A DNA stretch of 64,000 nucleotides from Bdellovibrionales bacterium (GTDB lineage Bacteria > Bdellovibrionota > Bdellovibrionia > Bdellovibrionales > CAYMLA01): positions 1,248,001 to 1,312,000 of the forward strand of contig OZ244239.1 in the NCBI GenBank assembly GCA_965217115.1, written 5' to 3'. Shown here piece after piece: positions 3,235-49,018 of this stretch (position 1 is its first letter; every line of letters starts with the position of its first letter). Position numbers and translations under genes: made by a program. A model generated the notes under the pieces. That model did no database searches and was not told the DNA's origin. It worked only from the letters and a program-made list of their open reading frames with translations.

Positions 3235-3236
3235 AA

Positions 3237-4190
3237 ATGAAGGTTTTCTTGTCTATTCTGCTGTTTTTTCCACTATTGGCTCACTCCGCCCGTGTTGTCG
3301 ACCGTATTATGGCCATTGTTAACGACGAAATTATCACTCTTTCTGATTTTCAAGCGTTTCGCAATAAAATTAAAAACAAAAAACCTCTTGATGATATTTT
3401 GTTTTTTAACAAAAAGCCTCGGTTTTTTCTTAATAAGAAGAGCGAACTTTTAAATCTCCTCGTTAACGAGAGTATCTTGGAATCTGAAATTAAAAAAAAT
3501 TCTCTTCAAGTAACTCAACAACAGGTTGCTGGTGAAATTCGTCGAATTGCCAAAAACTACGGTATTTCACAAGAACAATTAGTTAAGGAATTAAAAAAAG
3601 ACGGTCAAAGTTTTTCTGAATACAAGGCCTTTATTAAAACCCGCATGGAGAGGCAGAGGCTCGTTGGACAGGCCATTACTTCAAAAATTAAAATCACTGA
3701 TGACGAAGTTCTTCAATACTATCTTAAACAAAATTCTTCAGCAAAAGAGCAGGTCTTTGAATACACGCTCTCCCATATTTTTTTCTCTCCGAACAAGAGC
3801 GGGGGTCACGATGCTGCTATTGAGAGAGCTAGTCGGGTTTTACGGAAACTTAAAGGCGGTGAAAACTTTGAGCTTGCAGCAAAAAAGCACAGCGAAGATC
3901 CTAATTTCAGCTCAGGGGGATATCTCGGCACAGCAAAAGCTGGAGAGTTTAATGCCTCTGTCTCCCGTTCTATTTCTAAACTCAAGCCTGGCCAATTTTC
4001 AAAAGTTGTTAAAACACCTGCTGGCTATTCAATTTTAAAAATTATTAAGATTCAGATCGCTGACGACCCAAAATTTGCTAAAGCCAAACCCCAAATTAGA
4101 GATCTTTTAACTCAAAAAGCCTTTAAAAAACAATTTTATTTATGGATAAAAGAAAAACGACGTCTCGCCTTTATTAGGTTCAACAAATAA
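3237..4190 (+). CDS. surA: SurA-like periplasmic chaperone / PPIase
   Basis: VVDRIMAIVNDEIITLSD N-terminus, parvulin domain (FELAAKKHSED..GGYLG); directly upstream of pdxA. Confidence 0.85.
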   Translation: MKVFLSILLFFPLLAHSARVVDRIMAIVNDEIITLSDFQAFRNKIKNKKPLDDILFFNKKPRFFLNKKSELLNLLVNESILESEIKKNSLQVTQQQVAGEIRRIAKNYGISQEQLVKELKKDGQSFSEYKAFIKTRMERQRLVGQAITSKIKITDDEVLQYYLKQNSSAKEQVFEYTLSHIFFSPNKSGGHDAAIERASRVLRKLKGGENFELAAKKHSEDPNFSSGGYLGTAKAGEFNASVSRSISKLKPGQFSKVVKTPAGYSILKIIKIQIADDPKFAKAKPQIRDLLTQKAFKKQFYLWIKEKRRLAFIRFNK

Positions 4191-5194
4191 TGCTCAAACC
4201 CCTTCGCATCTCCCTTACAACAGGTGATGTTGATGGGATTGGCTTAGAAGTCACCTCAAAATCTCTTGCTAAAATAAAGCCTCTCCGCGGAGTTCATTTT
4301 TATATCTGGCGAAATCCGAGGTGTGACAAACGATATCTTCGGCTTATTGATTCTCAGTTTAAAAGAAAGACCGTTAACACTTGGTACGAAGCTTTGAACA
4401 CGCCCCATGAGTCTTATAAGTGGATCATCGATATAAGTACTCAACAGCCCCCTGCTAAGTGGGTCGAAGAATCCTCTCTGGCAGGGGCTTTTGGGCATAT
4501 AGACGGAATAGCTACGGCTCCTTTATCAAAAACATCCATTATAAAAGCAGGAATGAAAGACCTTGGCCATACTGATATTTTAAAGCGCATTACTAAAACA
4601 AAAGAACTCTATATGGGTTTTCTCGGTTCCAAATTTAATATTCTTCTGGCAACAGGCCATCTTCCCATAGAAAATATTACCCAGTCTATAAATAGCAAAT
4701 CTATCGAAAAATCTATTCTTGCTGCCAATCAGCTAAGACAAATTCTTCCCAAAAAATTTATCCACAGGCCCCTTGCTCTGCTTGGATTAAATCCCCACTC
4801 TGGAGAAAATGGACTTATCGGCTCTCAAGAAAAAAAATACTATGAAAAGGCCCTAAAAAGTGTCCGTGAGAAAAAAATTAACATCTCCGATATCCTTGTT
4901 CCTGATTGCGCTTTTTTTGAAAAAAATTGGCGTAAGTTTTCTGTTTATATTTGTTCCTATCATGATCAGGGCCTTATTCCATTTAAGATGGTTCATGGCC
5001 AAGATGCTGGCGCTCAAATTACAATGGGCTTAAAATTTATTAGAACAAGTGTCGACCACGGCACGGCAAAAGATATTTTTGGTAAAAACAAGGCTAACCC
5101 CTCCTCTATGATTGAGGCTATACTGCTTTGTACAAAACTTTGCCAAGTCTCTAATAGAGAAGGGACTGTTTTAACTAAAATAACTAAGGACTAA
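4190..5194 (+). CDS. pdxA: 4-hydroxythreonine-4-phosphate dehydrogenase
   Basis: GDVDGIGLE, TAPLSK, GHTD, GLNPHSGE, YHDQGLIPFK, RTSVDHGTA. Confidence 0.93.
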   Translation: MLKPLRISLTTGDVDGIGLEVTSKSLAKIKPLRGVHFYIWRNPRCDKRYLRLIDSQFKRKTVNTWYEALNTPHESYKWIIDISTQQPPAKWVEESSLAGAFGHIDGIATAPLSKTSIIKAGMKDLGHTDILKRITKTKELYMGFLGSKFNILLATGHLPIENITQSINSKSIEKSILAANQLRQILPKKFIHRPLALLGLNPHSGENGLIGSQEKKYYEKALKSVREKKINISDILVPDCAFFEKNWRKFSVYICSYHDQGLIPFKMVHGQDAGAQITMGLKFIRTSVDHGTAKDIFGKNKANPSSMIEAILLCTKLCQVSNREGTVLTKITKD

Positions 5195-16128: not shown

Positions 16129-16380
16129 CTCTTTTTTCCATCCTTTATTTACTATATATTATTAATATTATTAATAAGTAGAAGTAGTAGTGGTGTAGAT
16201 TGTGTGTGTTTCTTGTCAACCCTTCGAAAACACTTAATAATTACTGTGGATATCTCACTTCATATTCCCCTTGTCTATTCTATTTTTTTGTTAATAAGTT
16301 TAATCCACAAATTTGATAACACGTTTTTACACAGAGTTTTCCACAGAGGTTATCTACATCCCTGTGATATTGTGGATTTT
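16129..16380. other. Chromosomal replication origin oriC (dnaA-dnaN intergenic region)
   Basis: DnaA-box-like 9-mers: TGTGGATAT 16245-16253, TAATCCACA 16301-16309, TTTTACACA 16325-16333, TTTTCCACA 16337-16345, TTATCTACA 16350-16358, TGTGGATTT 16371-16379. AT-rich tract ~16144-16177 and TAG/AAG trios at 16176-16190. By eye the + strand is C-rich to the left and G-rich to the right. Confidence 0.88.
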
Positions 16381-17757
16381 ATTTGTTAACTCCTCGATAT
16401 CTCGTTTTAAATCTAAATTTTTCGTCTGTAGATTCGTTATTTTTCGGACGGCACTAATAACGGTCGTATGATCTCTGCCACCAAACGCCCGGCCAATATC
16501 TACAAGGGACTTATCTAAGTGTTTTTTTATTAAATACATAGCAACTTGACGCGCTATAACAACAGGTTTTGATCGTCCTTTGGATTTTAATTCTGAAATT
16601 TTAATGTCGTAATGCTCAGAGGCCAGTTTTTGAATTTCCTCTAAGCTGATAGAGGCTGGGTCGTCATGAATTGAGAGGATTTTTTTAGCAATTTCTAAGT
16701 TCATTTTAAGGCCCTGTAACTCGGCAAACATTTTAACCTTATTTAAATTTCCCTCAAGCTCACGAATTGATCTTTTTGAAATCCGTGAAATATAATTTAT
16801 AACCTCCCCAGGAAGGGAAAAACCAATTTGCTCGGCTTTATAACGCAAGATAGCAATGCGAGTTTCAAGGTCGGGCATTTGAATATCAGCAATTAAACCC
16901 CACTCTAAGCGCGAGCGAATACGATCTTCTAAACCATTAATATCTTTAGGCATTCGGTCACTTGCAACGACAACTTGCAGGTTTTTTTCAAAAAAATGAT
17001 TAATTGTGTGAAAAAATTCCTCAGGGGTCGCCTGCCCGCGACCAAGAAATTGACCGTCATCCATTAGCAAAACATCACATTGATTGCGAAATTTATTTCG
17101 AAAACTTTCCATGGTTTTTCTATGGATATTAGAGACGACTTCATTCATAAATCTTTCAGCGGAGATATAAACAACCCTTAATTCAGGCCTATTCTCTCGA
17201 ATCTGGTTACCAACAGCATTTAGTAAATGAGTTTTTCCCATTCCTACAGGGCCGCAAATAAAGAGAGGATTATAACCACCGACACCTGGGTTTTGAGCGA
17301 CGTTGTAAGAAGCTGCGTGGGCAAACTCATTATTTCGACCAACAACAAAGGTTGAAAAAGAGTAATTCCGATTAAGGGCATCTTGCCGAGATGGAGGTTT
17401 TTTTAACTGTGGGCTCTGTTGAGAATCAATACTTTGGACTTCAGACCCGTCTCCTTCAGGTTTGAGAGGGGCTTGCGTCTGTCCCGTCACTTCAAATTCA
17501 ATTTCGAAGCCCCCCTTGTAAACAGCTGAAATCTCTAGGCAGATTCTGTCAAAAAGATTTTCTATTATCCAATACTTGTGGAGTTTTGTAGGCACTCCGA
17601 GGCGCATCTTAGAGTGGCCATTTTTATCAGTTATCACAGAGATCAACTCAGTTGGCTCAAACCAAGTTTGAAGTAATTTATTGTTAGAGTTTTTAATTTT
17701 AAGACTATTCTTAATTGCGGACCAAAGTTCTTTATTTTCGTTTAATTCAATTTCCAA
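16354..17757 (-). CDS. dnaA: Chromosomal replication initiator DnaA (start moved to TTG 17757 behind AGAGAGG)
   Basis: FVVGRNN, YNPLFICGPVGMGKTHLL, RSRLEWG, RELEG, GGRDHTTV. Confidence 0.97.
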   Translation of the reverse strand: MEIELNENKELWSAIKNSLKIKNSNNKLLQTWFEPTELISVITDKNGHSKMRLGVPTKLHKYWIIENLFDRICLEISAVYKGGFEIEFEVTGQTQAPLKPEGDGSEVQSIDSQQSPQLKKPPSRQDALNRNYSFSTFVVGRNNEFAHAASYNVAQNPGVGGYNPLFICGPVGMGKTHLLNAVGNQIRENRPELRVVYISAERFMNEVVSNIHRKTMESFRNKFRNQCDVLLMDDGQFLGRGQATPEEFFHTINHFFEKNLQVVVASDRMPKDINGLEDRIRSRLEWGLIADIQMPDLETRIAILRYKAEQIGFSLPGEVINYISRISKRSIRELEGNLNKVKMFAELQGLKMNLEIAKKILSIHDDPASISLEEIQKLASEHYDIKISELKSKGRSKPVVIARQVAMYLIKKHLDKSLVDIGRAFGGRDHTTVISAVRKITNLQTKNLDLKRDIEELTNKIHNITGM

Positions 17758-18043
17758 TAGGGCCTCTCTTACGCTGATCGTATTTATTCTTGATGCACAC
17801 GCAAAAACCAAGCCTAAATTGGATCTATGTATGATTTATAGGGTGCTTTTACTAAGATGATAAAATTCTGAAATTTTGTCTAGATGTGATTTTTGAAGGT
17901 CATAACAGAGATAAAGTGACTTTTCAATACCTTGACCTGTTTGCTGCAATGTGCTTTTATCCTGGCTTAATTTAATAAGCCTAAAGAAAAAAATAAATAA
18001 CTTACGTTTATATGGCATTATTTCTAATCAGGAGTCTTTAGAT

Positions 18044-37924: not shown

Positions 37925-38875
37925 TTGGAAATATTGATGGATAATGAAAAACAGGAAAATGAGTTGAGTCATAAGGAAGGCCAAAAGAAGCCTTCTGTTT
38001 ATGAATATATAAGTTTCCGCCGTTTTTTAAAAGAGAGTTATGAGCATCTAGCTTCTAAGAACTCTTCTTTTAGTGAATCGGCTTTTATGAGAAAAGTGGG
38101 ATATAGTACCAGTAGTCGTGGTTATTTTAGCCTTATTCTTAAGGGAAAGAGAAACTTAAGTCACTCTTCTGTTTTGAAGTTTTCTAAGACATTGAAGCTC
38201 TCTAAAAGAGAGACAGATTACTTTGAGAGTCTTGTTTTCTTTAATCAAGCTCAGAATGAAGAGGATAAGAGTTATTATATGGATAAGATGTCTCAGTTCA
38301 TAAAGGGTAAAGAGACTGAAGGGTATGAGCTTTTAAAGAGCCAGCACAACTACTTGTCAAAATGGTATCTCGTAGCAATTAGAGAGATTGTTGTGCTCGA
38401 CGATTTTGTGAATGATGAAGAGTGGATTGCTAAGAGGCTGCGCAATAAAGTGAGTAAGAGAGAAGTTCGAGAGGCGATCAATGACCTTCTTCGTTTGAAG
38501 CTTTTGAAGTTCGACGAGGCGAGAAACCTTTGTCAATTAGACCCGGTGGTGAATTTTTTGGACAATGAGTTGAATCATACAGTCGTCAGTGGAATACATA
38601 AACAGTACTTAAATAGAACCGAAGAGTTGTTAAGTGAAGACAGTTACAATCACCGTAGCGCCAGTTCTGTGACAATTTCTTGTTATGGCGAAGATTTTTT
38701 AAAGATAAGAGAAGAAATTATCAAATTTAGAGAACATATTATTAATAAATACGGAACTCGAGATCAAAGTATGGATACCGTTTTACACATGGGAATACAG
38801 TTGATTCATTTAACTGAGCCTGACTGTGTTAATGGGAGTGGCGTTGATGAGAGTCATAAGGAGAAAATAGGATGA
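37925..38875 (+). CDS. TIGR02147 / DUF4423 family protein (putative DNA-binding regulator)
   Basis: YEY.SFRRFLK...FS..F...G..S.GYFSLILKGKRNLS..YFESLVFFNQA and WYLVAIRE, recognised as characteristic of this family. Confidence 0.85.
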   Translation: MEILMDNEKQENELSHKEGQKKPSVYEYISFRRFLKESYEHLASKNSSFSESAFMRKVGYSTSSRGYFSLILKGKRNLSHSSVLKFSKTLKLSKRETDYFESLVFFNQAQNEEDKSYYMDKMSQFIKGKETEGYELLKSQHNYLSKWYLVAIREIVVLDDFVNDEEWIAKRLRNKVSKREVREAINDLLRLKLLKFDEARNLCQLDPVVNFLDNELNHTVVSGIHKQYLNRTEELLSEDSYNHRSASSVTISCYGEDFLKIREEIIKFREHIINKYGTRDQSMDTVLHMGIQLIHLTEPDCVNGSGVDESHKEKIG

Positions 38876-39768
38876 AGTGGGTTTGCGAAAAAAAGAATTG
38901 TTTAATGTTCGTGTTTAGGAATTTGTCCAAAGTACTCTTGGTCTTTCTTTTGTGTTCCAGTTCAGCGGTGGGGCTTGAAACACCTTTTCTTTCTTCTGGA
39001 ACAAACATTGGTGGAGGTAATGAGTCCATTGATTTTGTAGCAACTTGGTGTCAGGAGGCCGTATCGACATTAAAGGAACATAAAGAGAGTGCTAAAATAC
39101 AGGTTCATCAGGGGAACTATCACACGGCTTCTTTGACTTTGGTCAGTGGTTTAGTTCGGGCTTTGGAGCAGAGCCAATCAGAGAATAATTACCTATTTAC
39201 TTATAAGGCCCTCTTAAGGGGTTTGAGTTTGGCAGAATTCCTTGATGTGGGAAGGGTTGATAAAAGTAGTTTTGAAAAAGAAGCGACTTATAATCTACTC
39301 AGAAGTTATTACGATTTTGTTATTGAGACTGTCGCTAGGGATTTAGATTTTGATGTGTACATTCCTTATCTTAGATGTGTTGATTGTGAATTGCATGATG
39401 CAGATCATTTTGAGCGTCGTTTTGTGAATTATGTTGTGAAGCAGTTGAGTTATATCCAAAGGACTTTAGTCAATGTGATCCATAGGGAAGGATATATAGA
39501 AATAACCCCTATAGGACCTGAGAGTTACTATTTAAAATCGATGGAGTTCTTTGCTCAGTACACGGCGGAGGATTTAAAGAACAGTCTTTGGAAGCAGCGT
39601 TTTAGTTGTGTGATTAGTGAGCTTAAGTCTTTAAATGGTAAACTTCAGCACTACAATCAGGGCAATACATCACTGTATCCAGACTCTCGTATTGCAGTCA
39701 ATATGGTGGGGAATCAGGTTTATAGAATTATTTCTCGTCTAAGGACAGAGGCAAATTGTTATTATTAA
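38872..39768 (+). CDS. Secreted hypothetical protein, paralogue of the N-terminal domain of 35074-36243
   Basis: ATGA overlap with the TIGR02147 stop; hydrophobic signal; GTNIGGG; shared motifs with 35074-36243. Confidence 0.75.
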   Translation: MKWVCEKKNCLMFVFRNLSKVLLVFLLCSSSAVGLETPFLSSGTNIGGGNESIDFVATWCQEAVSTLKEHKESAKIQVHQGNYHTASLTLVSGLVRALEQSQSENNYLFTYKALLRGLSLAEFLDVGRVDKSSFEKEATYNLLRSYYDFVIETVARDLDFDVYIPYLRCVDCELHDADHFERRFVNYVVKQLSYIQRTLVNVIHREGYIEITPIGPESYYLKSMEFFAQYTAEDLKNSLWKQRFSCVISELKSLNGKLQHYNQGNTSLYPDSRIAVNMVGNQVYRIISRLRTEANCYY

Positions 39769-39802
39769 GTTTAGAATTTATATATCTTAGGAGGATATCG
39801 CA

Positions 39803-40669
39803 ATGAAACATTTAATTTGGACAATGGTTTTTTATGTAGGTTTGATAATGCAGGGGCAGTTGGTCATGGCGTTTTCTTTACAAGAAGGCACTTATAAGGG
39901 GTCACATTACGACTCTTTAAAAAAAGGGAAGGCGGCTGTTTACTTAATGTTAAAGCCAGTCTCAGGAAGGGAAGGGAGCTTTCTTGCTGTTCTAATGAAG
40001 AGTAAGAAAAGAAAGAAGCAAGTGTCTTTTTATGTGATGGACTTGGCGTCAAAATTTTCTTACTCTCTAACCCCCCTTGATGTGACCACTGATGGACAAA
40101 TAGGTATTATCAATGATGACCCCAGTCTTGTTTTGTCGATGAGTACAGGAGAGAAGAATAAGTACTCCATTAAGATAACATCGAGCAATAGTGGCAATAC
40201 TAAGGGTTTTTCAGGGTATATGGTGTTTGAGGAAAGATCAGATAATTACCAGTGGATTGCTAATGGAGCTGGTAATTACAACTATGCAGGTCGAAAAAAC
40301 GCATTACAAATTTCTAGCTGGGATATTCTGGAAGGAGAGGCAGATGCCATTTTCACAACAGCTTCATTGAACGGGTCCTTTAAGATCAGTGAAAGTTTTC
40401 CTCAAATGTATTTAATCAATGCCAACAAGGTTTTAGCTACTGGCAGTAAAGTGGATTCTATCCCACGTAAAATAGGTTTCTTTATTAAAGAGAAAGGAGA
40501 ATGGTCGGGTAAAAAAGAGTGTTTTGTTCTGGTCAACCCAGAGAATGATAGAGATGTTATGACTTTTACGACGGGAAGTAGTGGGTCGAGTTCTTGGTTT
40601 AGTGGAGATTCAGGAACCTTTGATGATGATGATAATGATGGCGGGATGAGAGGTTCCGGACGAAAATGA
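39803..40669 (+). CDS. Secreted beta-rich hypothetical protein with an acidic Gly/Ser tail
   Basis: AGGAGG RBS; signal peptide ending VMA; tail GSSGSSSWFSGDSGTFDDDDNDGG. Confidence 0.75.
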   Translation: MKHLIWTMVFYVGLIMQGQLVMAFSLQEGTYKGSHYDSLKKGKAAVYLMLKPVSGREGSFLAVLMKSKKRKKQVSFYVMDLASKFSYSLTPLDVTTDGQIGIINDDPSLVLSMSTGEKNKYSIKITSSNSGNTKGFSGYMVFEERSDNYQWIANGAGNYNYAGRKNALQISSWDILEGEADAIFTTASLNGSFKISESFPQMYLINANKVLATGSKVDSIPRKIGFFIKEKGEWSGKKECFVLVNPENDRDVMTFTTGSSGSSSWFSGDSGTFDDDDNDGGMRGSGRK

Positions 40670-40742
40670 TCACAATTGGAACTAAATGAATTAAGAGGCT
40701 CCATTGAAGTTAAACAGAGAAGACATTAAAGAGGAAGATATT

Positions 40743-42398
40743 ATGAAAATCTTAAGCAAAGTGAAGAGAGTTTTAAAAAAGGGAAGTGTGTTGACTTTGT
40801 CCATGTCTTTGTTTTTAGGGTTGAGTTTCTCCCAAGCGGAGATTGCCGGCAATTTAGGCGGCAATTTAGGTCTTAATCTAGGTATTAATATTGAAGCCGT
40901 GCTCAATGAAGGGACTCAAGTTGAGTTATCTCAAGAGCAGATATCAGAGATACTCCCCTGGGCTAAGAACTCGAAGATTTTCCTAGAGAATCTTCTTGAG
41001 GATGTGGCAGGTTTGCGTAAGGCAGAGCAATTACAGCAGTTGAAGGGAGGTATTCGAGATGTGGTTTTAAAAAGTGCCCCTAAGAACACTGAACTTTTAA
41101 TGCGTTATGTGTTGAACCGTTCAATGAAGCTTGTTGATGTGATCTCCACTGAATCAGTTTCTGGTGATCGGGGAATTATGAGCAATCAACTTCGCCTACT
41201 TAAAAGAAGTGTTGAGATGGCTTTGGGTTATTATAAGAGTGATCTGTCCTACTTAAATGGTGAGGATGACAGTGAAGACCGTGTTTCTTTTGGGGTCTTT
41301 GGATTGGAGTATTCTGTGTTTTTAGCAGATTTAGGAAAATCGATCTTAGATGCATCGGCTCAATATAAAGTTATAAGAACGGGTTTAGGTTTTCTGCAAT
41401 GGGATCTTTATAGGGATCAGAACAATAAGTTATTTGCTCCATCGATTATGTCGTTAAATAACGTCCTAAAGGCGAATCCTGAAGACGTAGAAGCCAGTGA
41501 TCAGAATTACCTAGAGAGAATTCGTCAGTTAAAGAGGGTTTACAAAAAACAAAAAAACAGTATCGTGCAAAAGTTAAGAATAGCAGGCGTGCAAGTGAGA
41601 AAAGAGAGAAGGAAAGAGCGGGGAGTTTCTTCAAGTGTGCTCCAAGCTCTTTTTGTAAAGGTAGAGCCGGGTAGGTTTCAGATGGGAAGTTCCACTCGTG
41701 AAAAAGGTCGTTATGATGATGAGACCCAGCATGAAGTGACTTTAACGAAAGGTTTTGAGATGCAAGCGACAGAGGTCACTCAGGAGCAATGGTTTGAAGT
41801 CATGGGCGATAGCCCCTCCGACTTTAATAAAAAAACATACTGTGAAGATTCTTTTAAGGATGTGGATGGGACTCCACTATGCCCTCAACATCCTGTGGAG
41901 AACATTTCTTGGAAAGATGTTCAGGATTTTATACGTGAGTTAAATATATTAAGTTCTACTCATACTTATAGATTACCGACTGAGGCCGAATGGGAGTATG
42001 CGGCCCGTGCAGGGACGAAAACCCCTTTTAATTTAGGGGGAGATATCTCTCCAGAGAGAGTGAACTATAATGGTGATGAGCCTTATAGAGGTGTTAAAGG
42101 TCTTAATAGAAAACAGACAGTCGCGGTGGCTAGTCTTGATAATGCGAATAGATGGGGTCTTTATGATATGCACGGTAACGTGTGGGAATGGGTGAAGGAC
42201 CGATACACTAAGTACCCCGATAGGCCTATGATAAATCCAAATCTCTTGAATCGCCCACGCTCACAAGTTGTTTTGCGTGGTGGTGACTGGGCATCCAAAG
42301 CTAGGCACATGCGGTCGGCGATGCGTCTTAACAGCGATTATTCTTGGAGCGACGAAGACGGCAGTGCGGGCTTCCGTCTTGTGAGGACTGCCAAATAG
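40743..42398 (+). CDS. Secreted protein: conserved helical N-domain plus non-catalytic FGE/SUMF1 (CLec-fold) domain; DGR-target-like
   Basis: FQMGS, TEVTQ, HPVENISW, RLPTEAEWEYAARAG, GLYDMHGNVWEW, RGG.W, GFRLV; no FGE catalytic Cys pair; start at ATG 40743 after GAGGA. Confidence 0.88.
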   Translation: MKILSKVKRVLKKGSVLTLSMSLFLGLSFSQAEIAGNLGGNLGLNLGINIEAVLNEGTQVELSQEQISEILPWAKNSKIFLENLLEDVAGLRKAEQLQQLKGGIRDVVLKSAPKNTELLMRYVLNRSMKLVDVISTESVSGDRGIMSNQLRLLKRSVEMALGYYKSDLSYLNGEDDSEDRVSFGVFGLEYSVFLADLGKSILDASAQYKVIRTGLGFLQWDLYRDQNNKLFAPSIMSLNNVLKANPEDVEASDQNYLERIRQLKRVYKKQKNSIVQKLRIAGVQVRKERRKERGVSSSVLQALFVKVEPGRFQMGSSTREKGRYDDETQHEVTLTKGFEMQATEVTQEQWFEVMGDSPSDFNKKTYCEDSFKDVDGTPLCPQHPVENISWKDVQDFIRELNILSSTHTYRLPTEAEWEYAARAGTKTPFNLGGDISPERVNYNGDEPYRGVKGLNRKQTVAVASLDNANRWGLYDMHGNVWEWVKDRYTKYPDRPMINPNLLNRPRSQVVLRGGDWASKARHMRSAMRLNSDYSWSDEDGSAGFRLVRTAK

Positions 42399-42457
42399 TC
42401 ATGAATTAAGAGGCTCTATTTAAATTAAACAGAGAAGATATTAAAGAGGAATATATT

Positions 42458-43639
42458 ATGAAAATCTTAAGCAAAGTGAAGAGAGTTTTAGAAAAGGCAA
42501 GTGTATTGACTTTGTCCATGTCTTTGTTTTTGGGATTGAGTTTCTCCCAAGCGGAGATTGGTGGCAATTTAGGTAGTAATTTAGGTCTTAATCTAGGTAT
42601 TAAGATTGAAGCCGTGCTCAATGAAGGAACTCAAGTTGAGTTATCTCAAGAGCAGATATCAGAGATGCTTCCCTGGGCTAAGAACTCGAAGATTTTCCTA
42701 GAGGATCTTCTTGAGGATGTGGCAGGTTTGCGTAAGGCAGAGCAATTACAGCAGTTGAAGGCAGTTATTCGAGATGTGGTTTTACAAAGTGCTCCTAAGA
42801 AGACTGAACTTTTAATGCGTTATGTGTTGAACCGCTCAATGATGCTTGTTGATGTGATCTCCAATGAATCGGTTTCTGGTGATCGAGGAATTATGAACAA
42901 TCAACTTCGGCTGCTTAAAAGAAGTGTTGAGATGGCTTTGGGTTATTATAAGAGTGACCTGTCCTACTTAAATGGTGAGGATGACAGTGCAGATCGTGTT
43001 TCTTTTGCGGTCTTTGGCTTGGAGTATTCTGTGTTTTTAGCAGATTTAGGAAACTCGATCTTAGATGCATCGGCTCAATATAAAGTTATAAGAATGAGAT
43101 TAGGTTTTTTACAGAATAGTCTTTATAGGGATCAGAACAATAAGGTATTTGCTCCATCAATTATATCGTTAAATAACGCCTTAAAGGCGAATCCTGAAGA
43201 AGTAGAAGCCAGTGACCAGAATTACCTAGAGAGAATTCGTCAGTTAAAGAGGATTTATGAGAAACAGAAAGCTCATATTGTACAAGAGTTAAAAGAGATG
43301 AAGTATGATATCAGTAATTTTGAGTCACAGGAAGTCGAAAGAGAAAACTATAGGAATAGGAGAGAAATTGACAGGAAGAAGATGAAAAAAAAGATGAGAA
43401 AAAAATACTACAGTTGTAGAAACGTAGAGAGAGGGAGTCGTTTCGATTTTGCCCGTTATGATAAACGCGATAACGCTCAAAAATGTATAAAAAAATATGC
43501 AAAATTTATCTCTACTGGAGATTGTCGCTACAGCCTTGGATTTACCCGGCCATTTCTCAATTATTCAATCTACTCATTTATCCCCGCAAAAGTTTTTGTG
43601 AAGGATGTTATGGACACTTGTCGTAGATACGTAAAATGA
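42458..43639 (+). CDS. Secreted paralogue: same N-domain with an unrelated basic, four-Cys C-terminal domain
   Basis: First ~270 aa nearly identical to neighbours, then diverges after RQLKR. Confidence 0.85.
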   Translation: MKILSKVKRVLEKASVLTLSMSLFLGLSFSQAEIGGNLGSNLGLNLGIKIEAVLNEGTQVELSQEQISEMLPWAKNSKIFLEDLLEDVAGLRKAEQLQQLKAVIRDVVLQSAPKKTELLMRYVLNRSMMLVDVISNESVSGDRGIMNNQLRLLKRSVEMALGYYKSDLSYLNGEDDSADRVSFAVFGLEYSVFLADLGNSILDASAQYKVIRMRLGFLQNSLYRDQNNKVFAPSIISLNNALKANPEEVEASDQNYLERIRQLKRIYEKQKAHIVQELKEMKYDISNFESQEVERENYRNRREIDRKKMKKKMRKKYYSCRNVERGSRFDFARYDKRDNAQKCIKKYAKFISTGDCRYSLGFTRPFLNYSIYSFIPAKVFVKDVMDTCRRYVK

Positions 43640-43745
43640 TAATAAAATAGTTTTAGTCGTCCGAAAAGGATTATAATTGGAACGAAATGAATTAATAGAG
43701 GCTCCATTTAAATTAAACAGAGAAGATATTAAAGAGGAATATATT

Positions 43746-45353
43746 ATGAAAATCTTAAGCAAAGTGAAGAGAGTTTTAAAAAAGGCAAGTGTATTGATTT
43801 TGTCCATGTCTTTGTTTTTGGGATTGAGTTTCTCCCAAGCGGAGGAGATTGCCGGCAAATTAGGTAGTAATTTAGGTCTTAATCTAGGTATTAAGATTGA
43901 AGCCGTGCTCAATGAAGGAACTCAAGTTGAATTATCTCAAGAGCAGATATCAGAGATGCTTCCCTGGGCTAAGAACTCGAAGATTTTCCTAGAGGATCTT
44001 CTTGAGAATGTGGCAGGTTTACGTAAGGCAGAGCAATTACAGCAGTTGAAGGCAGTTATTCGAGATGTGGTTTTACAAAGCGCTCCTAAGAAGACTGAAC
44101 TTTTAATGCGTTATGTGTTGAACCGCTCAATGATGCTTGTTGATGTGATCTCCAATGAATCGGTTTCTGGTGATCGAGGAATTATGAACAATCAACTTCG
44201 GCTGCTTAAAAGAAGTGTTGAGATGGCTTTGGGTTATTATAAGAGTGACCTGTCCTACTTAAATGGTGAGGATGACAGTGCAGATCGTGTTTCTTTTGCG
44301 GTCTTTGGCTTGGAGTATTCTGTGTTTTTAGCAGATTTAGGAAACTCGATCTTAGATGCATCGGCTCAATATAAAGTTATAAGAATGAGATTAGGTTTTT
44401 TACAGAATAGTCTTTATAGGGATCAGAACAATAAGGTATTTGCTACATCGATTATATCGTTAAATAACGCCCTAAAGGCGAATCCTGAAGACGTAGAAGC
44501 CAGTGACCAGAATTACCTAGAGAGAATTCGTCAGTTAAAGAGGGTTTACAAAAAACAGAAAAATCATATCATGCAAGGGTTAAAAAGAGCAGGCGCGCAA
44601 GTGAGAAAAGAGAGATGGAAAGAGCGGGGTGTTTCTTCAAATGTGCTCCAAGCTCTTTTTGTAAAGGTAGACCCGGGTAGGTTTCAAATGGGAAGTTCCA
44701 TTCGTGAAAAAGGTCATTTTGAGGATGAGACCCAGCATGAAGAGATTTTAAAGAAAGGTTTTGAGATGCAAGCGACAGAGGTCACTCAGGAGCAATGGTT
44801 TCAAGTCATGGGTGATAGCCCCTCCTACTTTAATAAAAAAACATACTGTGAAGATTCTTTTAAGGACGTCGATAGAACTCCACGATGCCCTCAACATCCT
44901 GTGGAGAACATTTCTTGGAATCATGTTCAGGATTTTATAAAGGAGTTAAATAAATTAAGTTCTACTCATATTTATAGATTACCGACTGAGGCTGAATGGG
45001 AGTATGCGGCCCGTGCAGGGACGAAAACCCCTTTTAATTTAGGGGGAGATATCTCTCCAGAGAGAGTGAACTATAATGGTGACAAGCCTTATAAAGGTGT
45101 TAAAGGTCTTAATAGAAAACAGACAGTCGCGGTGGCGAGTCTTGATAATGCCAATAGCTGGGGCCTTTATGATATGCACGGAAACGTGTGGGAATGGGTG
45201 CAGGACTGGGGCAGCTATGAGTGGTACCGTGTTTTGCGTGGCGGTGGCTGGCCGAACCCCGCTTGGCGCGTGCGGTCGGCGGCGCGTACTAATCGGGAGA
45301 AAGGTTCGATTCACCGAGCTGTGGGCTTCCGTCTTGTGAGGACTGCCAAATAG
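43746..45353 (+). CDS. Secreted protein: conserved helical N-domain plus non-catalytic FGE/SUMF1 domain; DGR-target-like
   Basis: Same motifs as 40743-42398; start at ATG 43746 after GAGGA. Confidence 0.88.
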   Translation: MKILSKVKRVLKKASVLILSMSLFLGLSFSQAEEIAGKLGSNLGLNLGIKIEAVLNEGTQVELSQEQISEMLPWAKNSKIFLEDLLENVAGLRKAEQLQQLKAVIRDVVLQSAPKKTELLMRYVLNRSMMLVDVISNESVSGDRGIMNNQLRLLKRSVEMALGYYKSDLSYLNGEDDSADRVSFAVFGLEYSVFLADLGNSILDASAQYKVIRMRLGFLQNSLYRDQNNKVFATSIISLNNALKANPEDVEASDQNYLERIRQLKRVYKKQKNHIMQGLKRAGAQVRKERWKERGVSSNVLQALFVKVDPGRFQMGSSIREKGHFEDETQHEEILKKGFEMQATEVTQEQWFQVMGDSPSYFNKKTYCEDSFKDVDRTPRCPQHPVENISWNHVQDFIKELNKLSSTHIYRLPTEAEWEYAARAGTKTPFNLGGDISPERVNYNGDKPYKGVKGLNRKQTVAVASLDNANSWGLYDMHGNVWEWVQDWGSYEWYRVLRGGGWPNPAWRVRSAARTNREKGSIHRAVGFRLVRTAK

Positions 45354-45469
45354 TCATGAATTAAGAGGCTCTATTTAAATAATGCCTTAAAGATGAGACC
45401 TGAAAAAGCACAAATTAAAGATTAGGGACAAAGAGTGAGAATGTTTTTTAAGAAGAGACTGATCTTTGA

Positions 45470-48400
45470 TTATAAAAACAATTCAGGGAGTTTTTGGTAA
45501 ACAGATGACCAAGACATATTGTCCATTTGTACGGCGATTTTATGACTACCTACGAGAGTGACAGAGCCTTTTTTCTGTTTGGAAGTTTTTTTGACGAGAG
45601 CTAAAATAGTCTCAGATTTAATGGAGGTGTCTCGTCTAAAAGTAATGGAGAGATTTTTCTTTCCACTAGAGATGTCGGTGATATAAAGTTTTTTACAAAG
45701 ACTTCGTATAAGCATCAGGCCTATGAGGTTAATAACGGGTTCAGGTATTGAACCAAATCGATCCTTAAATTCGTCCTCTATGGTGTCAGCATCCTCTTCG
45801 CCTCGAATCTGTGTGAGTTTTTTGTAGTAGGCTAGACGAGTGCGAATATCTGGAATGTACTTATTAGGAATAAGGGCTGCAATGCGGAGATTTATTTCTG
45901 GTTCAAAACTGTTTTCTTCAAGTTCCTCTCCTTTTAATTTTTGGATTTCCTGTTTGAGAAGATCCATGTAGAGTTCATACCCAATGGAGGAGACCTGTCC
46001 TGATTGATCTTGTCCGAGAATATTTCCAGAGCCCCTTAGTTCAAGGTCGTATTGAGCGATGAGAAGACCGCTGCCAAAACGGGTGTTTTCTTGAATAATA
46101 CGTAATCTCTCTTGGGCCAGAGGCTCAATGGTCTTGTCTTTTGGTATAAGCAGATAACAATAAGCCTTTTGATGACTGCGACCAACTCTTCCACGCAATT
46201 GATAAAGTTGGCTTAAACCAAAGGTATGGGCGTTATCAATAAAAAGAGTGTTGGCTTGTGGAATATCAATGCCCGATTCAATAATTGTTGTGCAAACGAG
46301 AAGATCTACTTCGTGTTTAAAGAAACTCAAAATAGTTTTTTCCAAACCTTTTTCATCCATTTGCCCGTGACCGACAGCGATTTTTATTTCAGGTAAAAGC
46401 TCTCGTAGTTCGAGAGCAACCTGATTTATAGACTGTACGCGGTTGTGAAGAAAGAAAACCTGGCCATCACGAGCGACCTCAGCAAGAACTGCCTTGCGAA
46501 GAGTTTCTTTTTCAAATCGAGTGATAAAAGTTCTTATTGGCTGACGATTTAAGGGCGCCGTATTGATAAGGCTTAGGCTGCGCAGTCCAGAAAGGCTTAA
46601 GTTTAAGGTGCGTGGAATAGGGGTGGCCGACATAGCAAGAGTGTCGATGACGTTTTTGAGTTTACGAATTTTTTCTTTATGGGCGACACCAAACTTCTGT
46701 TCTTCGTCAACAACAAGTAAACCAAGATTTGCAAAGTGAATTTTCGAGCTAAAAACTTTGTGAGTTGTGATTAAAATATGAACATCACCACTGTTAATAG
46801 CATTAATTGTTTTATGAATATGTTTGTTAGACATAAAACGATTGAGGAGCTGTATGTTAAAAGGCCAATTTTTAAATCGTTTTTTAAAGGTTTCATAATG
46901 TTGAAAGGTAAGGACTGTCGTCGGAGCTAAAATGACAACCTGTTTGCCATCTTTAGCTACGCGAAATGCGGCTCGCATGGCGACCTCTGTTTTTCCAAAG
47001 CCGACGTCTCCACACAAAAGACGATCCATGGGTTGCTCTTTAGAGAGATCCTCTTGAATTTCACCGATGGCTTTTTGTTGGTCGACAGTTTCTAGATAGG
47101 GGAATTCTTTTTCGAAGAGCTCGTAATCCTGATTTAGCGCAGAAAAAGGGGGCCTTGTTATCTGGGCTCGTTTGGCATAAATACTTAGTAATTCTGAGGC
47201 GAGGTCCTTTAAGTGTTTCTGTGTTTTACTTTTTGTCTCCTGCCATTTTTGACCGCCCAGTTGATCTAATATAACAGACTTGTCGGGTCCTGAGTATTTT
47301 TGTAAAAGACCAACACGGTAGGTGGGAACATAAAGTTTATCCTGTTTTTTGTAGGTGAGTTCTATAAATTCATTTTCGACCCCTTCAATAGAGATCATTT
47401 TAAGACCATGGTAAAGACCAATACCGTGTTCAATATGGACAACGCTGTCCCCTATTTTGAGATCACCAAAACTAAGTAGGCTGGCGTTTTCTTGAAAACT
47501 TTGGTGGGCTTCTTTTTGTCTGTTGACGAGAGCCTTGCGTCCGAGGAGGTCTTTTTCTTGGATAAGCACAACTTTATCATCCATGTTGTGTAGAGTCTCA
47601 GAGATTTGCCCCTCAAGAATATGTATAAGAGGGACCTCCGATTGATTTTGCTCCTCAAACCATTGATTCCAGTGACGGTCTTTTTTTGGAACAAGTTTGT
47701 ATAAGAAGCCCATTTGTTTAAAAAGAGCTTGGACTCTTTCAAACTGGTTATGGTGACTGATACAGGCAAAAATAAAGCAACCCTGTTCCTGCCAGTGAAC
47801 TATTTTTTGGGAGAGTTTGTCCTGCCAAGGAGAGTTGTCATTTTCCCTGTGAATATTTCTTAATTCAGAGGGGTAACGGGAGCGAAGGGAGACGGAGTCT
47901 GGGTTCCCCTCGGTTTGGCTATCCTGAATACTCATGACCTGAACTGTTGTGACCAAAACAGTGTTGTGGTTTTTTATAAGAAGCTCTTCACTGTAGGGAC
48001 TGTAAAAAAAATGACTTGGATACTGCAAGGTTTCGATTGGAGCCTGAGCTTGCTCTATTTGAAGATCAGAGAAGAGAGTGTCGGCCTGGCGTGTGATTGA
48101 AAGGGGATCAAAAAGCCATAAACAGCGCTCGGGGTGGATAAAATCGAGGGGAGTTCCTGGTTTATTATAGGCAACGGGTAAGTAAAATTCAAAGCCAGGG
48201 AAAGTGCGCTCTTGGCTTAAATTTCGAACTTGGTGCTTAATCCAATCAGCACTGGCTTGGGGGTGTCTCCATTTATGAAATCGCTGGATGGTTTCCTCTA
48301 AGGAATCTCCGTCGTAGAGGACTTCTCGAGAAGCTATAATATCTATTGAATCGATTTTGTTTTGCGATCGTTGAGTATCAAGGTTAAAGAAGCGGATGGA

Positions 48401-49018
48401 ATCAATCTCATCACCAAAGAATTCAATTCGAACAGGAAGAGAATAAGAGGGAGTGTAAATATCTAGAATACCACCTCTAATTGAAAACTGCCCAATATCC
48501 TCAACGCTTGGAGAGTGAATGTAACCGAGTTTTTTAAGCTCTTGGGCAAAGCCGGGGATTTCATTGCCAACGGACCATTTGCTTTGGGTGCTCTTAAAAA
48601 GAGGCTGGGGAATTGTTTTTTGGAGAAAAGCATTGATGGGGGCGATGAGAATGTTTTTTGCTAAATTTTGTTCAGCTAAATAAAGCCAATGAAGGCGTTC
48701 GGCTGCTGTGCCAGGAGAGGAGCTGAGTCCAGAATAGGGAGACACATCCGTCGCTTTAAGGATGTTGCAGGAGATATCTGGGTCAAAAAAGAAAAGATCT
48801 TCTTTTAGGCGAAAGGCTTCTTTTTCTGATGAAACAAGAACGACGTGGGAAAGGCTTGATTGGAAGGATAAATCACTTAAGGAGGCGGCGAGTGTTGGAA
48901 TCGAGCTGTGTCCATGAATTTCAAGGGAATGTTTTTTATGGGAAGAATCAGAGTTGGGAGAGAGCAGTTTCTTGCTCAAAACCCCAGAAGATCGCCAAGA
49001 TAAAGATGAGTAAAGCAT
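45470..49018 (-). CDS. mfd: Transcription-repair coupling factor
   Basis: RGGILDIY, VVHIEHGIG, CGDVGFGKTEVA, DEEQKFG, SATPIPRTL, QLRGRVGRS, TRCF C-terminus. Confidence 0.97.
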   Translation of the reverse strand: MLYSSLSWRSSGVLSKKLLSPNSDSSHKKHSLEIHGHSSIPTLAASLSDLSFQSSLSHVVLVSSEKEAFRLKEDLFFFDPDISCNILKATDVSPYSGLSSSPGTAAERLHWLYLAEQNLAKNILIAPINAFLQKTIPQPLFKSTQSKWSVGNEIPGFAQELKKLGYIHSPSVEDIGQFSIRGGILDIYTPSYSLPVRIEFFGDEIDSIRFFNLDTQRSQNKIDSIDIIASREVLYDGDSLEETIQRFHKWRHPQASADWIKHQVRNLSQERTFPGFEFYLPVAYNKPGTPLDFIHPERCLWLFDPLSITRQADTLFSDLQIEQAQAPIETLQYPSHFFYSPYSEELLIKNHNTVLVTTVQVMSIQDSQTEGNPDSVSLRSRYPSELRNIHRENDNSPWQDKLSQKIVHWQEQGCFIFACISHHNQFERVQALFKQMGFLYKLVPKKDRHWNQWFEEQNQSEVPLIHILEGQISETLHNMDDKVVLIQEKDLLGRKALVNRQKEAHQSFQENASLLSFGDLKIGDSVVHIEHGIGLYHGLKMISIEGVENEFIELTYKKQDKLYVPTYRVGLLQKYSGPDKSVILDQLGGQKWQETKSKTQKHLKDLASELLSIYAKRAQITRPPFSALNQDYELFEKEFPYLETVDQQKAIGEIQEDLSKEQPMDRLLCGDVGFGKTEVAMRAAFRVAKDGKQVVILAPTTVLTFQHYETFKKRFKNWPFNIQLLNRFMSNKHIHKTINAINSGDVHILITTHKVFSSKIHFANLGLLVVDEEQKFGVAHKEKIRKLKNVIDTLAMSATPIPRTLNLSLSGLRSLSLINTAPLNRQPIRTFITRFEKETLRKAVLAEVARDGQVFFLHNRVQSINQVALELRELLPEIKIAVGHGQMDEKGLEKTILSFFKHEVDLLVCTTIIESGIDIPQANTLFIDNAHTFGLSQLYQLRGRVGRSHQKAYCYLLIPKDKTIEPLAQERLRIIQENTRFGSGLLIAQYDLELRGSGNILGQDQSGQVSSIGYELYMDLLKQEIQKLKGEELEENSFEPEINLRIAALIPNKYIPDIRTRLAYYKKLTQIRGEEDADTIEDEFKDRFGSIPEPVINLIGLMLIRSLCKKLYITDISSGKKNLSITFRRDTSIKSETILALVKKTSKQKKGSVTLVGSHKIAVQMDNMSWSSVYQKLPELFL

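What the first reader, a model, noticed from the sequence alone, without database searches (positions are those of the whole stretch)
42195..45380. Two FGE/CLec-fold genes with DGR variable-region signatures but no RT or template repeat in the window
Seen: the FGE domains are highly similar up to GNVWEWV, diverge over 42195-42367 versus 45201-45322, then are identical for 58 nt (42368-42425 = 45323-45380). In the alignable 21 codons (VLRGG...R.N) I count 17 differences, 13 at codon positions 1-2 and 12 with an A in one copy. The scaffold codons (GTT TTG CGT GGY GGT TGG GCT CGG TCG GCG CGT, then GGC TTC CGT CTT GTG) contain no A despite an AT-rich genome. Known: DGRs mutate template adenines, keep scaffold residues in A-free codons, often target the C-terminus of FGE-type CLec folds, end in an invariant IMH and can act on remote targets. 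Inference: these are current or former trans-targets of a DGR that diversifies secreted ligand-binding proteins in a probable predator. Caveats: the two regions also differ by in-frame indels (15 and 2 codons), which DGRs do not normally make, and I see no clear downstream stem-loop.
Basis: partly seen in the sequence, partly recalled or inferred. Interest (0 to 1): 0.87.

Follow-up and report, generated by a model that had tools for sequence, protein, structure and literature searches.

The report
Likely orphaned DGR variable-region genes
Two neighbouring genes for secreted binding proteins carry the hypervariable tail typical of targets of a diversity-generating retroelement, but the retroelement is not in view, so they are probably leftover or remotely served targets of an already known kind of system.

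Summary
Genes A (40743-42398) and C (43746-45353) are tandem paralogues. They differ at 99 of 1452 aligned nt outside one block (42195-42367 / 45201-45322). Inside it identity falls to 35-58%, and 58 identical nt follow. In the 22 alignable codons, 11 variable codons differ at 18/33 nt and 11 interleaved scaffold codons at 1/33. All 16 scaffold codons are A-free (P about 7e-4).

The window holds no RT, Avd or template repeat. A relative in a Bdellovibrionales MAG (L015) is a true DGR target: 124-nt VR/TR, 19 mismatches, all at TR adenines, RT adjacent. It shares the scaffold codons, the GFRLVRTAK tail and the A-poor composition with the window genes. Three full-length homologues appear to share contigs with RTs of that clade. 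A VR-versus-VR comparison in the true DGR gives the same statistics as A versus C.

Against a live DGR:
- The source genome is not in the searchable collection.
- None of 139 listed RTs of that clade lies on its 2.17-Mb contig.
- The two blocks differ by indels.
- They lack the downstream hairpin.
- They carry K/E/Q/M/W at background frequency.

Best reading: DGR-written variable regions, now probably orphaned. This is a known kind, as in Treponema denticola.

The parts
40743..42398 (+). Gene A: signal peptide, all-helical N-terminal domain, C-terminal FGE/CLec-type domain. The listed ORF starts at TTG 40704; ATG 40743 is the start shared with B and C.
   Evidence: ORF; PF03781 E 1e-47; shared start in the alignment. 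The signal peptide is read from the sequence (inference).
42195..42367 (+). Divergent VR-like block of gene A. The alignable core is 42270-42335; the block is 15 and 2 codons longer than in C.
   Evidence: A 26%; A-free choice 21/31, z 1.1. In the core, 17/22, z 1.8.
42368..42425 (+). 58 nt identical to 45323-45380: the coding tail GFRLVRTAK with its stop, then 27 nt of the array's leader.
   Evidence: The tail is almost identical at the nt level to the end of the L015 variable region.
42458..43639 (+). Gene B: same N-terminal domain (57-60 of 60 nt identical to C over about 850 nt), unrelated K/R- and Cys-rich C-terminus, no FGE domain.
43746..45353 (+). Gene C: paralogue of A, 82% protein identity. 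The listed ORF starts at TTG 43677.
   Evidence: Model pLDDT 70. Best fold match is TvpA 2y3c, E 2e-11, closely followed by PvdO.
45201..45322 (+). Divergent VR-like block of gene C. The alignable core is 45231-45296. It is A-poor and GC-rich.
   Evidence: A 14.8% against 31.8% in the rest of the gene; A-free choice 22/24, z 3.3. Core 23/24, z 3.9. Core GC 68%.
45323..45380 (+). 58 nt identical to 42368-42425: coding tail, stop, and a partial leader copy that marks the end of the tandem unit.
40686..40715 (+). Leader copy upstream of gene A. A second copy lies at 43687-43718, upstream of gene C. It is the same sequence as the post-stop part of the 58-nt identity.
   Evidence: 90-91% identity

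Best explanation
Genes A and C encode secreted proteins whose C-terminal FGE-type C-type-lectin domain ends in a DGR-style variable region. The hypervariable codons, interleaved with A-free scaffold codons, were most likely written by mutagenic retrohoming. In that process an RT copies a template-repeat RNA, misreads its adenines, and the cDNA replaces the variable region up to the conserved GGCTTCCG..GTGAG end.

The RT and template are not in this window. For these two copies the element is more likely lost or no longer acting (about 0.4) than still acting in trans (about 0.2). They would then be leftover targets, like those described in Treponema denticola isolates without a core DGR.

Shown: the pattern in the sequence, the homology to a verified DGR target, and the absence of RT and TR from the window. 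Inferred: that a DGR made the A-versus-C differences, and that it is now gone.
For: 1. The divergence is interleaved at the codon scale. Variable codons differ at 18/33 nt and scaffold codons at 1/33, with dS 0.136 in the rest of the genes. 7 of 11 variable codons differ at two or more positions. Third positions of variable codons differ at 4/11 against 49/485 (P 0.019), which points to mutation rather than selection alone.

2. The scaffold codons are A-free (P 6.7e-4) and rare (CGG, TCG, GCG). The rest of the same FGE domains shows no A avoidance (z -0.18 and 0.49).

3. L015 is a true DGR in the same family: 124-nt VR/TR, 19 mismatches all at TR adenines, RVT_1 RT with IGNLTSQ and YMDD. It has the same scaffold layout, the same GTG-CGG-...-GCG codons, the same coding tail, and an A-poor core (A 14%, GC 59%, against gene C A 14%, GC 68%).

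4. Positive control. The variable regions of L015 and L010 (genes 96% identical) differ at 28 nt, by codon position 14/9/5, 68% with an A. A versus C differs at 19 nt, 8/6/5, 68%.

5. A-free choice by group:
- TR or Avd/RT in view: z 3.4, 3.9, 2.3 (3 of 3 above 2).
- 9 VR-like genes with no DGR in view: z 2.0-3.8.
- 3 other FGE-family genes: z -0.7, 1.1, 1.7.
- Gene C 3.9; gene A 1.8.

6. Full-length homologues P0026, P0028 and P0040 share contig length and source with clade RTs P0201, P0163 and P0249.

7. The same source contig holds a second pair, P0096 and P0104. They have the architecture of the L015 target, and their last 35 residues also diverge.

8. Precedent for leftover targets without RT or TR: PMC4891356 (passages read). 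L010 also lacks the RT-TR that L015 has at the same site.
Against: - No TR or RT was found for this genome. None is in the window.
- None of 139 distinct clade RTs lies on the 2,170,531-bp contig. The two lists of 120 share 101, which gives a Lincoln-Petersen estimate of about 143.
- The two blocks differ by 15- and 2-codon indels, so they cannot both be copies of one TR over their whole length.
- K/E/Q/M/W, which AAY codons cannot yield, stand at background frequency: A 5/23, C 3/21. In likely live variable regions they are 0-2 of 21-22. T. denticola TRs do, however, contain lysine codons (PMC4891356).
- The downstream hairpin and post-stop element of the L015-type loci are absent.
- 'A in one copy' is not above background (p 0.45).
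- Any difference between two variable regions can be assigned to a TR adenine, so without a TR the adenine rule is untested.
- Gene A alone is not significantly A-avoiding (z 1.1-1.8).
Confidence: 0.6

Rival explanations
1. Still active trans-targets. A DGR elsewhere in the genome, on another replicon of the assembly, or with a divergent RT, currently rewrites one or both blocks. This is a sub-case of the DGR reading and a rival only to 'orphaned'.
For: Remote targets more than 100 kb from the RT are documented (10 DGRs; seven non-adjacent targets in Treponema; PMC5758913, passages). Gene C's block has the canonical 26-residue core length and the strongest A avoidance (z 3.9). P0096 and P0104 on the same contig look like AAY-type variable regions (1/21 and 2/22 K/E/Q/M/W). 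The RT lists only reach about 56% identity, so a divergent RT would be missed.
Against: No clade RT lies on the contig among 139 listed. There is no downstream hairpin or post-stop element. Indels separate A and C. K/E/Q/M/W stand at background frequency.
Confidence: 0.2
2. No DGR acted in this lineage. The family inherited A-free scaffold codons from DGR-targeted ancestors. The A-versus-C differences arose by ordinary point mutation and indels under diversifying selection on the ligand-binding loops, while gene conversion kept the rest of the tandem genes alike.
For: Gene conversion is active in the array: B and C are 57-60 of 60 nt identical over the N-terminal half. Indels, purine third positions and K/E/M/W residues fit ordinary evolution. 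The variable positions are the usual variable positions of the fold. No RT or TR was found.
Against: Multi-nucleotide changes occur in 7 of 11 variable codons at dS about 0.14, with only 1/33 change in codons interleaved at a 3-9 nt scale. Conversion tracts cannot be interleaved that finely. Apparent synonymous change inside the variable codons is also raised (pS 0.49 against 0.125). Gene C's block is A-depleted (A:C direction 10:3 against 21:35, p 0.014).
Confidence: 0.28
3. Mosaic origin. The GC-rich block of gene C (or of A) was imported by recombination from another paralogue or from a foreign FGE gene.
For: The block has sharp borders, 64% GC in a 39% GC genome, and a 15-codon length difference.
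Against: Scaffold codons inside the block are as similar to gene A as the flanks are (1/33). There is no similar donor among the other paralogues at protein level (by eye from the sequences), in the window, or among the 15 loci (alignments). The same GC-rich, A-poor core is found in every VR-like homologue, so it is a property of the cassette and not of a foreign origin.
Confidence: 0.1

Closest known systems
Treponema denticola DGR: TvpA, its remote targets, and leftover targets in isolates without a core DGR
   Same: An FGE-type CLec domain with the variable region at the C-terminus, and secreted or lipoprotein targets. There are several paralogous targets far from the RT, and target genes persist where RT and TR are absent (PMC5758913 and PMC4891356, passages). 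TvpA 2y3c is the top fold match (E 2e-11, TMt 0.60).
   Different: Sequence identity to TvpA is low (25% in the fold alignment). PvdO and true FGEs score almost as well. In Treponema the TR is known and the variable regions differ from it mostly at adenines; here no TR is available.
DGR of the Bdellovibrionales MAG contig CAIYID010000036.1 (locus L015), found here
   Same: Same FGE subfamily (44-47% identity), the same RGG.W...A...R.A.R scaffold with A-free codons, and the same coding tail GFRLVRTAK with near-identical nucleotides. The N-terminal architecture matches the source genome's P0096 and P0104.
   Different: L015 has the RT, the TR, an HTH gene, a conserved post-stop element and a strong hairpin (z -5.5). 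The window has none of these. The window genes have a different, all-helical N-terminal domain.
Cyanobacterial plasmid DGR with an FGE-type target (Anabaena sp. 90 pANA02, locus L019)
   Same: FGE-type target with an A-free scaffold (z 3.85) and no K/E/Q/M/W in the core.
   Different: It has annotated Avd and RT next to the target, and a 125-nt TR at 86% identity. The C-terminal tail differs (GFRVVC...).
Bordetella phage BPP-1 Mtd (prototype DGR)
   Same: By recall: a C-terminal variable region in a CLec fold, adenine mutagenesis, and an invariant 3' end with a hairpin.
   Different: By recall: a phage tail-fibre protein of the non-FGE CLec subclass, with a single adjacent target. Nothing here was compared with it by a tool.

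Membership tests
Diversity-generating retroelement (as a target of one) | A DGR-clade reverse transcriptase in the same genome | tested here: inconclusive
   Absent from the window: Pfam on 48 ORFs of 120 aa or more, and tblastn with two DGR RTs, two Avd and one HTH, with no hit better than E 2.9. For the genome, none of 139 distinct clade RTs lies on the 2,170,531-bp contig. Divergent RTs and other replicons were not covered. The genome is not in genome contigs.
Diversity-generating retroelement (as a target of one) | A template repeat: a second copy of the variable region that differs from it only at TR adenines | tested here: inconclusive
   The window holds no third copy. The TR-only pattern found 0 matches in genome contigs, but the source genome is not in that collection, so the rest of the genome is untested.
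Diversity-generating retroelement (as a target of one) | Variable region at the 3' end of a gene for a CLec/FGE-fold protein | tested here: met
   PF03781 reaches the last residues. The divergent block covers the last 40-57 codons before the tail. Fold matches are TvpA, PvdO and FGEs.
Diversity-generating retroelement (as a target of one) | Variation confined to codons that carry adenines in the TR, with A-free scaffold codons between them | tested here: met
   The test used the TR of a homologue, not the genome's own. 10 of 11 variable codons and 1 of 11 scaffold codons coincide with A-containing codons of the L015 TR (p 3e-4). All 16 scaffold codons are A-free (P 6.7e-4).
Diversity-generating retroelement (as a target of one) | Variable residues of the AAY-derived set (no K, E, Q, M, W), with pyrimidine third positions | tested here: not met
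   K/E/Q/M/W: A 5/23, C 3/21, against a background of 24-25%. Third positions of variable codons differ at 4/11. Lysine codons do occur in some TRs (PMC4891356), so this is not a strict criterion.
Diversity-generating retroelement (as a target of one) | Variable regions that share a TR have equal length | tested here: not met
   Gaps of 45 nt and 6 nt separate the two blocks. Core lengths are 28 (A) and 26 (C) residues.
Diversity-generating retroelement (as a target of one) | Conserved 3' end (IMH) followed by a hairpin or cruciform. The criterion is recalled from work on BPP-1. | tested here: inconclusive
   The coding 3' end matches the L015 VR/TR end apart from two synonymous changes. No stable structure lies downstream (z 0.15 and 0.46, against -5.5 in L015). 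The post-stop element shared by six related loci is absent.
Formylglycine-generating enzyme (catalytic FGE/SUMF1) | FGE-sulfatase domain | tested here: met
   PF03781, E 1e-47 and 1.3e-40
Formylglycine-generating enzyme (catalytic FGE/SUMF1) | Match to a curated enzyme family, and the catalytic cysteine pair in the C-terminal segment (the cysteine pair is recalled) | tested here: not met
   All NCBIfam matches (PvdO, GldK, EgtB, SenA, GldJ) lie far below their cut-offs, for example 103 against 500 bits. No cysteine occurs in the last 60 residues of A or C (sequences).

The most novel reading that the evidence does not exclude
A small-genome bacterium related to Bdellovibrionota (2.17-Mb contig) keeps a repertoire of at least four secreted FGE-type binding proteins in two architectures. 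A DGR located far from the origin-proximal array, or one with a divergent RT, rewrites them in trans. This would be hypervariable ligand or prey recognition in a lineage where DGRs have not been discussed in print. Two full-text searches found none: one search gave one incidental citation and one search gave 0 papers. The searches cover open-access text only, and the supplements of the large surveys were not read.
Probability: 0.2. Interest if true: 0.65.

Novelty: new member of a known kind. Interest (0 to 1): 0.4.

Why it matters
If a DGR wrote the blocks, the array records targeted hypermutation of secreted binding proteins in a lineage related to predatory bacteria. It would also be a second natural case, after Treponema denticola, of target genes outliving or sitting far from their retroelement. 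That helps annotators, because FGE-domain genes with an A-free, GC-rich tail in an AT-rich genome can be flagged as DGR-type variable proteins even without an RT nearby. The codon-level tests used here separated verified variable regions from other FGE genes in a small sample, and could be reused. It does not change what is known about how DGRs work.

Tried and rejected
1. A TR-only IUPAC pattern (A at every A/C difference) searched in genome contigs gave 0 matches. This is uninformative, because the source genome is not in that collection. One search returned 15 loci and none came from a 2,170,531-bp contig.

Accessions and names were therefore not obtained.

3. Two RT searches looked for an RT on the source contig and found none. 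I had first rated their power as low. The 101/120 overlap raised it, but only for RTs at least about 56% identical to the queries.

4. The two FGE genes of Treponema locus L006 were tried as a VR-versus-VR control. They are not copies of one TR, so this was dropped.

5. A consensus structure for the post-stop element of six loci gave only 2 predicted pairs and no covariation. Rfam gave nothing but tRNAs and SRP RNA in the loci, and nothing in the window.

6. Cyanobacterial plasmid FGE genes were tried as negative controls for A avoidance. All 5 of 5 showed it (z 2.3-3.9), including 3 with no DGR within 5 kb, so they are not true negatives. Three other plasmid genes (Klebsiella, Methanomethylovorans, Spirosoma) then served, with z -0.7 to 1.7. 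That is a small sample, and their DGR status was not checked beyond 4 kb of annotation.

7. An Atlas search for the N-terminal domain gave no usable hit. Its function stays unknown.

8. I first held that a shared TR would need stop-prone AAA, AAG and AGA codons and was therefore implausible. I withdrew this after reading that T. denticola TRs contain lysine codons.

Full report
SETTING

The window is the origin region of a chromosome of about 39% GC. It holds dnaA (16354-17811, minus strand), dnaN, recF, gyrB, gyrA, parAB, the ATP synthase, nuo genes, mfd and lon. The cumulative GC skew turns near 18 kb.

Three tandem paralogues lie between a TIGR02147/DUF4423 gene with two unknown secreted-looking proteins (37925-40669) and mfd (45470-49018, minus strand).
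- Gene A is 40704/40743-42398.
- Gene B is 42458-43639.
- Gene C is 43677/43746-45353.
- A and C carry a C-terminal FGE-sulfatase domain (PF03781, E 1e-47 and 1.3e-40).
- B shares only the N-terminal half and ends in an unrelated K/R- and Cys-rich segment.
- All three begin with a signal-peptide-like sequence (read; inference).

Outside one block, A and C differ at 99 of 1452 aligned nt (6.8%; dS 0.136, dN 0.055). Identity per 60 columns is 49-60 until GNVWEWV. It is then 21, 28 and 35 of 60, and then 56 of 60. The alignment shows gaps of 45 and 6 nt and 58 identical nt at 42368-42425 = 45323-45380.

For 22 codons they are 19, 14 and 13.

The strongest feature is the interleaving.
- Eleven variable codons differ at 18 of 33 nt (P 4e-13 against the background).
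- Eleven scaffold codons between them differ at 1 of 33.
- All 16 scaffold codons, including GFRLV, are A-free (P 6.7e-4 from the codon usage of 17,640 window codons).
- Three of them (CGG, TCG, GCG) are rare, with a product of 5e-4.

The block of gene C is A-poor (14.8% against 31.8% in the rest of the gene) and GC-rich. The same FGE domains upstream show no A avoidance (z -0.18 and 0.49).

- 'An A in one copy' (13/19) is not above the 56/99 seen elsewhere in the genes (p 0.45). Only the direction is skewed: 10 in A and 3 in C, against 21 and 35 (p 0.014).
- The 58 identical nt are partly tandem-unit structure. The 27 nt after the stop are a copy of the leader that also precedes genes A and C.

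WHAT THE WINDOW DOES NOT HOLD

- No reverse transcriptase. Pfam was run on 48 ORFs of 120 aa or more.
- No Avd or HTH homologue. tblastn with two DGR RTs, two Avd and one HTH protein gave nothing better than E 2.9.
- No third copy of either block.
- No Rfam family.
- No stable structure downstream of either stop (z 0.15 and 0.46).

RELATIVES

The proteins of the window lie on a contig of 2,170,531 bp. That contig also encodes two further FGE paralogues, P0096 and P0104. They are 82% identical to each other, end in GFRLVRTAK, and also diverge in their last 35 or so residues.

That genome is not among the genome contigs representatives. A degenerate pattern for GFRLVRTAK plus a stop found 15 loci, none from that contig.
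- Six of the 15 carry Bdellovibrionota-type labels.
- A seventh (L010) is 96% identical to one of those six.
- One (L004) is a chance hit outside an FGE gene.

One locus is decisive for the family. L015 is a Bdellovibrionales MAG contig.
- Its FGE gene is at 3094-4461.
- Its last 124 nt before GTGAG (4325-4448) are repeated at 5362-5239 on the other strand, with 19 mismatches.
- All 19 mismatches are at adenines of that second copy, which has 33 adenines.
- Next to the second copy lies a 347-aa RT (RVT_1, E 3e-22, with IGNLTSQ and YMDD).
- An HTH protein lies between the RT-TR pair and the target.

This is a bona fide DGR. Its TR and variable region share three things with the window genes:
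- the scaffold R-G-G-x-W-xxx-A-xxx-R-x-A-x-R in A-free codons;
- the run GTG-CGG-...-GCG;
- a coding tail that differs from the window's only at synonymous sites.

Ten of the 11 variable codons of the window, and 1 of its 11 scaffold codons, fall on A-containing codons of that TR (p 3e-4). Natural variability of the fold would predict the same.

Among the 15 loci and the window, tblastn with this RT finds only L015. Pfam on 64 of the 187 ORFs of 170 aa or more finds RVT_1 only there. L004 and L009 were left out entirely, and distal ORFs of other loci were left out too.

The N-terminal architecture of the L015 target is that of P0096 and P0104.

The window's own architecture is a helical N-domain plus FGE. 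Of the nine contigs that carry its ten full-length homologues, three match a clade RT in both contig length and source: P0026/P0201 (16,542), P0028/P0163 (40,196) and P0040/P0249 (492,572). A fourth match (2,874) has different sources and may be chance.

CALIBRATION AGAINST TRUE AND FALSE CASES

L010 carries the same gene as L015 (96% identity) but lacks the TR and RT; homology ends at L015 position 4756. Comparing the two variable regions gives 28 differences, by codon position 14/9/5, 68% with an A in one copy and 22 at TR adenines, against 4.2% divergence elsewhere. A versus C gives 19 differences, 8/6/5 and 68%.

A-free synonymous choice in the core, against the rest of each gene:
- Genes with a TR or Avd/RT in view: z 3.4, 3.9 and 2.3 (L015, L019, L018).
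- Nine VR-like genes with no DGR in view: z 2.0-3.8.
- A Klebsiella, a Methanomethylovorans and a Spirosoma plasmid gene: z -0.7, 1.1 and 1.7.
- Gene C: 3.9. Gene A: 1.8.

Residues that AAY codons cannot give (K, E, Q, M, W):
- 0-1 of 21-22 in L015, L019, L013, L014, P0026, P0028 and P0040.
- 1/21 and 2/22 in P0096 and P0104.
- 2/21 in L003, 3/22 in the TR-less L010, and 4/21 in the Klebsiella gene.
- 5/23 and 3/21 in genes A and C, which is background frequency.

IS THERE AN RT IN THE SOURCE GENOME?

Two searches with RTs of the clade each listed 120 proteins, down to 56-57% identity. 101 are shared and 139 are distinct, so the clade at that depth has about 143 clusters. None is on the 2,170,531-bp contig.

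This speaks against a typical clade RT on that contig. It does not exclude a divergent RT, another DGR clade, or another replicon.

STRUCTURE

A model of gene C (pLDDT 70) has an all-helical N-domain (residues 65-281) and an FGE fold. The best PDB match is the T. denticola variable protein TvpA (2y3c, E 2e-11, TMt 0.60). PvdO and the FGEs score almost as well.

All NCBIfam enzyme families are far below their cut-offs. The C-terminal segment has no cysteine. The catalytic role of a cysteine pair is recalled, not tested.

READING

Codon-interleaved, multi-nucleotide divergence at low background divergence fits writing by a DGR better than point mutation under selection or a recombined tract. So do the A-free rare scaffold codons and the homology to a verified DGR cassette.

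Four things argue that these two copies are not being rewritten now:
- the indels;
- the missing downstream elements;
- the residue content;
- the absence of a clade RT.

Target genes left behind after loss of the core DGR are described for T. denticola isolates (PMC4891356, passages). Remote targets are described there and in a survey of 372 DGRs (PMC5758913, passages).

I put the probabilities as follows:
- 0.6 on DGR-written blocks, of which about 0.4 orphaned and 0.2 still served in trans;
- 0.28 on ordinary diversifying evolution of an inherited scaffold;
- 0.1 on a mosaic origin.

One speculation: the 15-codon deletion in gene C abuts the 5' edge of the block, as an imprecise 5' junction of cDNA integration would.

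NOVELTY

This is a new member of a known kind. Full-text searches for DGR together with Bdellovibrio or Bdellovibrionota found only an incidental citation and nothing else. The searches cover open-access text only, and the supplementary tables of the large surveys were not read.

Noticed in passing
L015:3094-6418: A complete DGR in a Bdellovibrionales MAG contig with a convergent layout. The FGE target is on the plus strand. RT (6418-5375), TR (5362-5239) and an HTH gene (5015-4620) are on the minus strand. No Avd was seen.
   Followed up: yes
L003, L008, L010, L012, L014, L015: the 30-130 nt after the stop of the FGE gene: A pyrimidine-rich post-stop element (TTCTTGGCTCTTTTACTCTTTTTCCCTTG-like) is conserved across genomes of 41-63% GC and across different N-terminal architectures. 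GNRA-type hairpins follow it (L015 z -5.5). It has no Rfam match and no consensus fold was found. It may be a target-recognition element. It is absent from the window.
   Followed up: partly
L010:10030-11831 versus L015:4461-6418: Two loci are 96% identical over 3.9 kb but differ in having the DGR core. L010 has a resolvase gene where L015 has HTH, TR and RT. The L010 variable region differs from the L015 TR at 18 positions, 13 of them TR adenines.
   Followed up: partly
window:42458-43639: Gene B keeps the signal peptide and helical N-domain, almost identical to gene C, but has an unrelated 110-residue K/R- and Cys-rich C-terminus with no Pfam or NCBIfam match. This is a domain swap inside the tandem array.
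   Followed up: no
source contig outside the window (proteins P0096, P0104): A second pair of FGE paralogues has the architecture of the L015 target. Their tails diverge, include a one-residue indel, and look more AAY-like than those of A and C. Their DNA and flanks could not be fetched.
   Followed up: partly
window:16354-18600: The cumulative GC skew turns near 18 kb, beside dnaA-dnaN-recF-gyrB-gyrA. The array therefore lies about 23-27 kb from the likely replication origin.
   Followed up: no
L005:10001-10111 and L007:10001-10111 (minus strand): In two spirochaete MAG contigs, labelled Treponema sp. (L005) and Spirochaetales (L007), a 37-codon open frame ends in ...YYRDETDNADYGFRLVRTAK and stands alone next to recA and an M23 peptidase gene. 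It may be a remnant of an FGE-type variable region.
   Followed up: no
L016, L017, L020 (cyanobacterial plasmids): FGE-family genes with no Avd, RT or TR within 5 kb still show strong A-free scaffold choice (z 3.1-3.5) and Y/D/S-rich cores. They may be remote DGR targets.
   Followed up: partly
window:37925-40669: A TIGR02147/DUF4423 family gene (E 2.6e-56) and two genes for unknown proteins with hydrophobic N-termini lie directly upstream of the array on the same strand.
   Followed up: no
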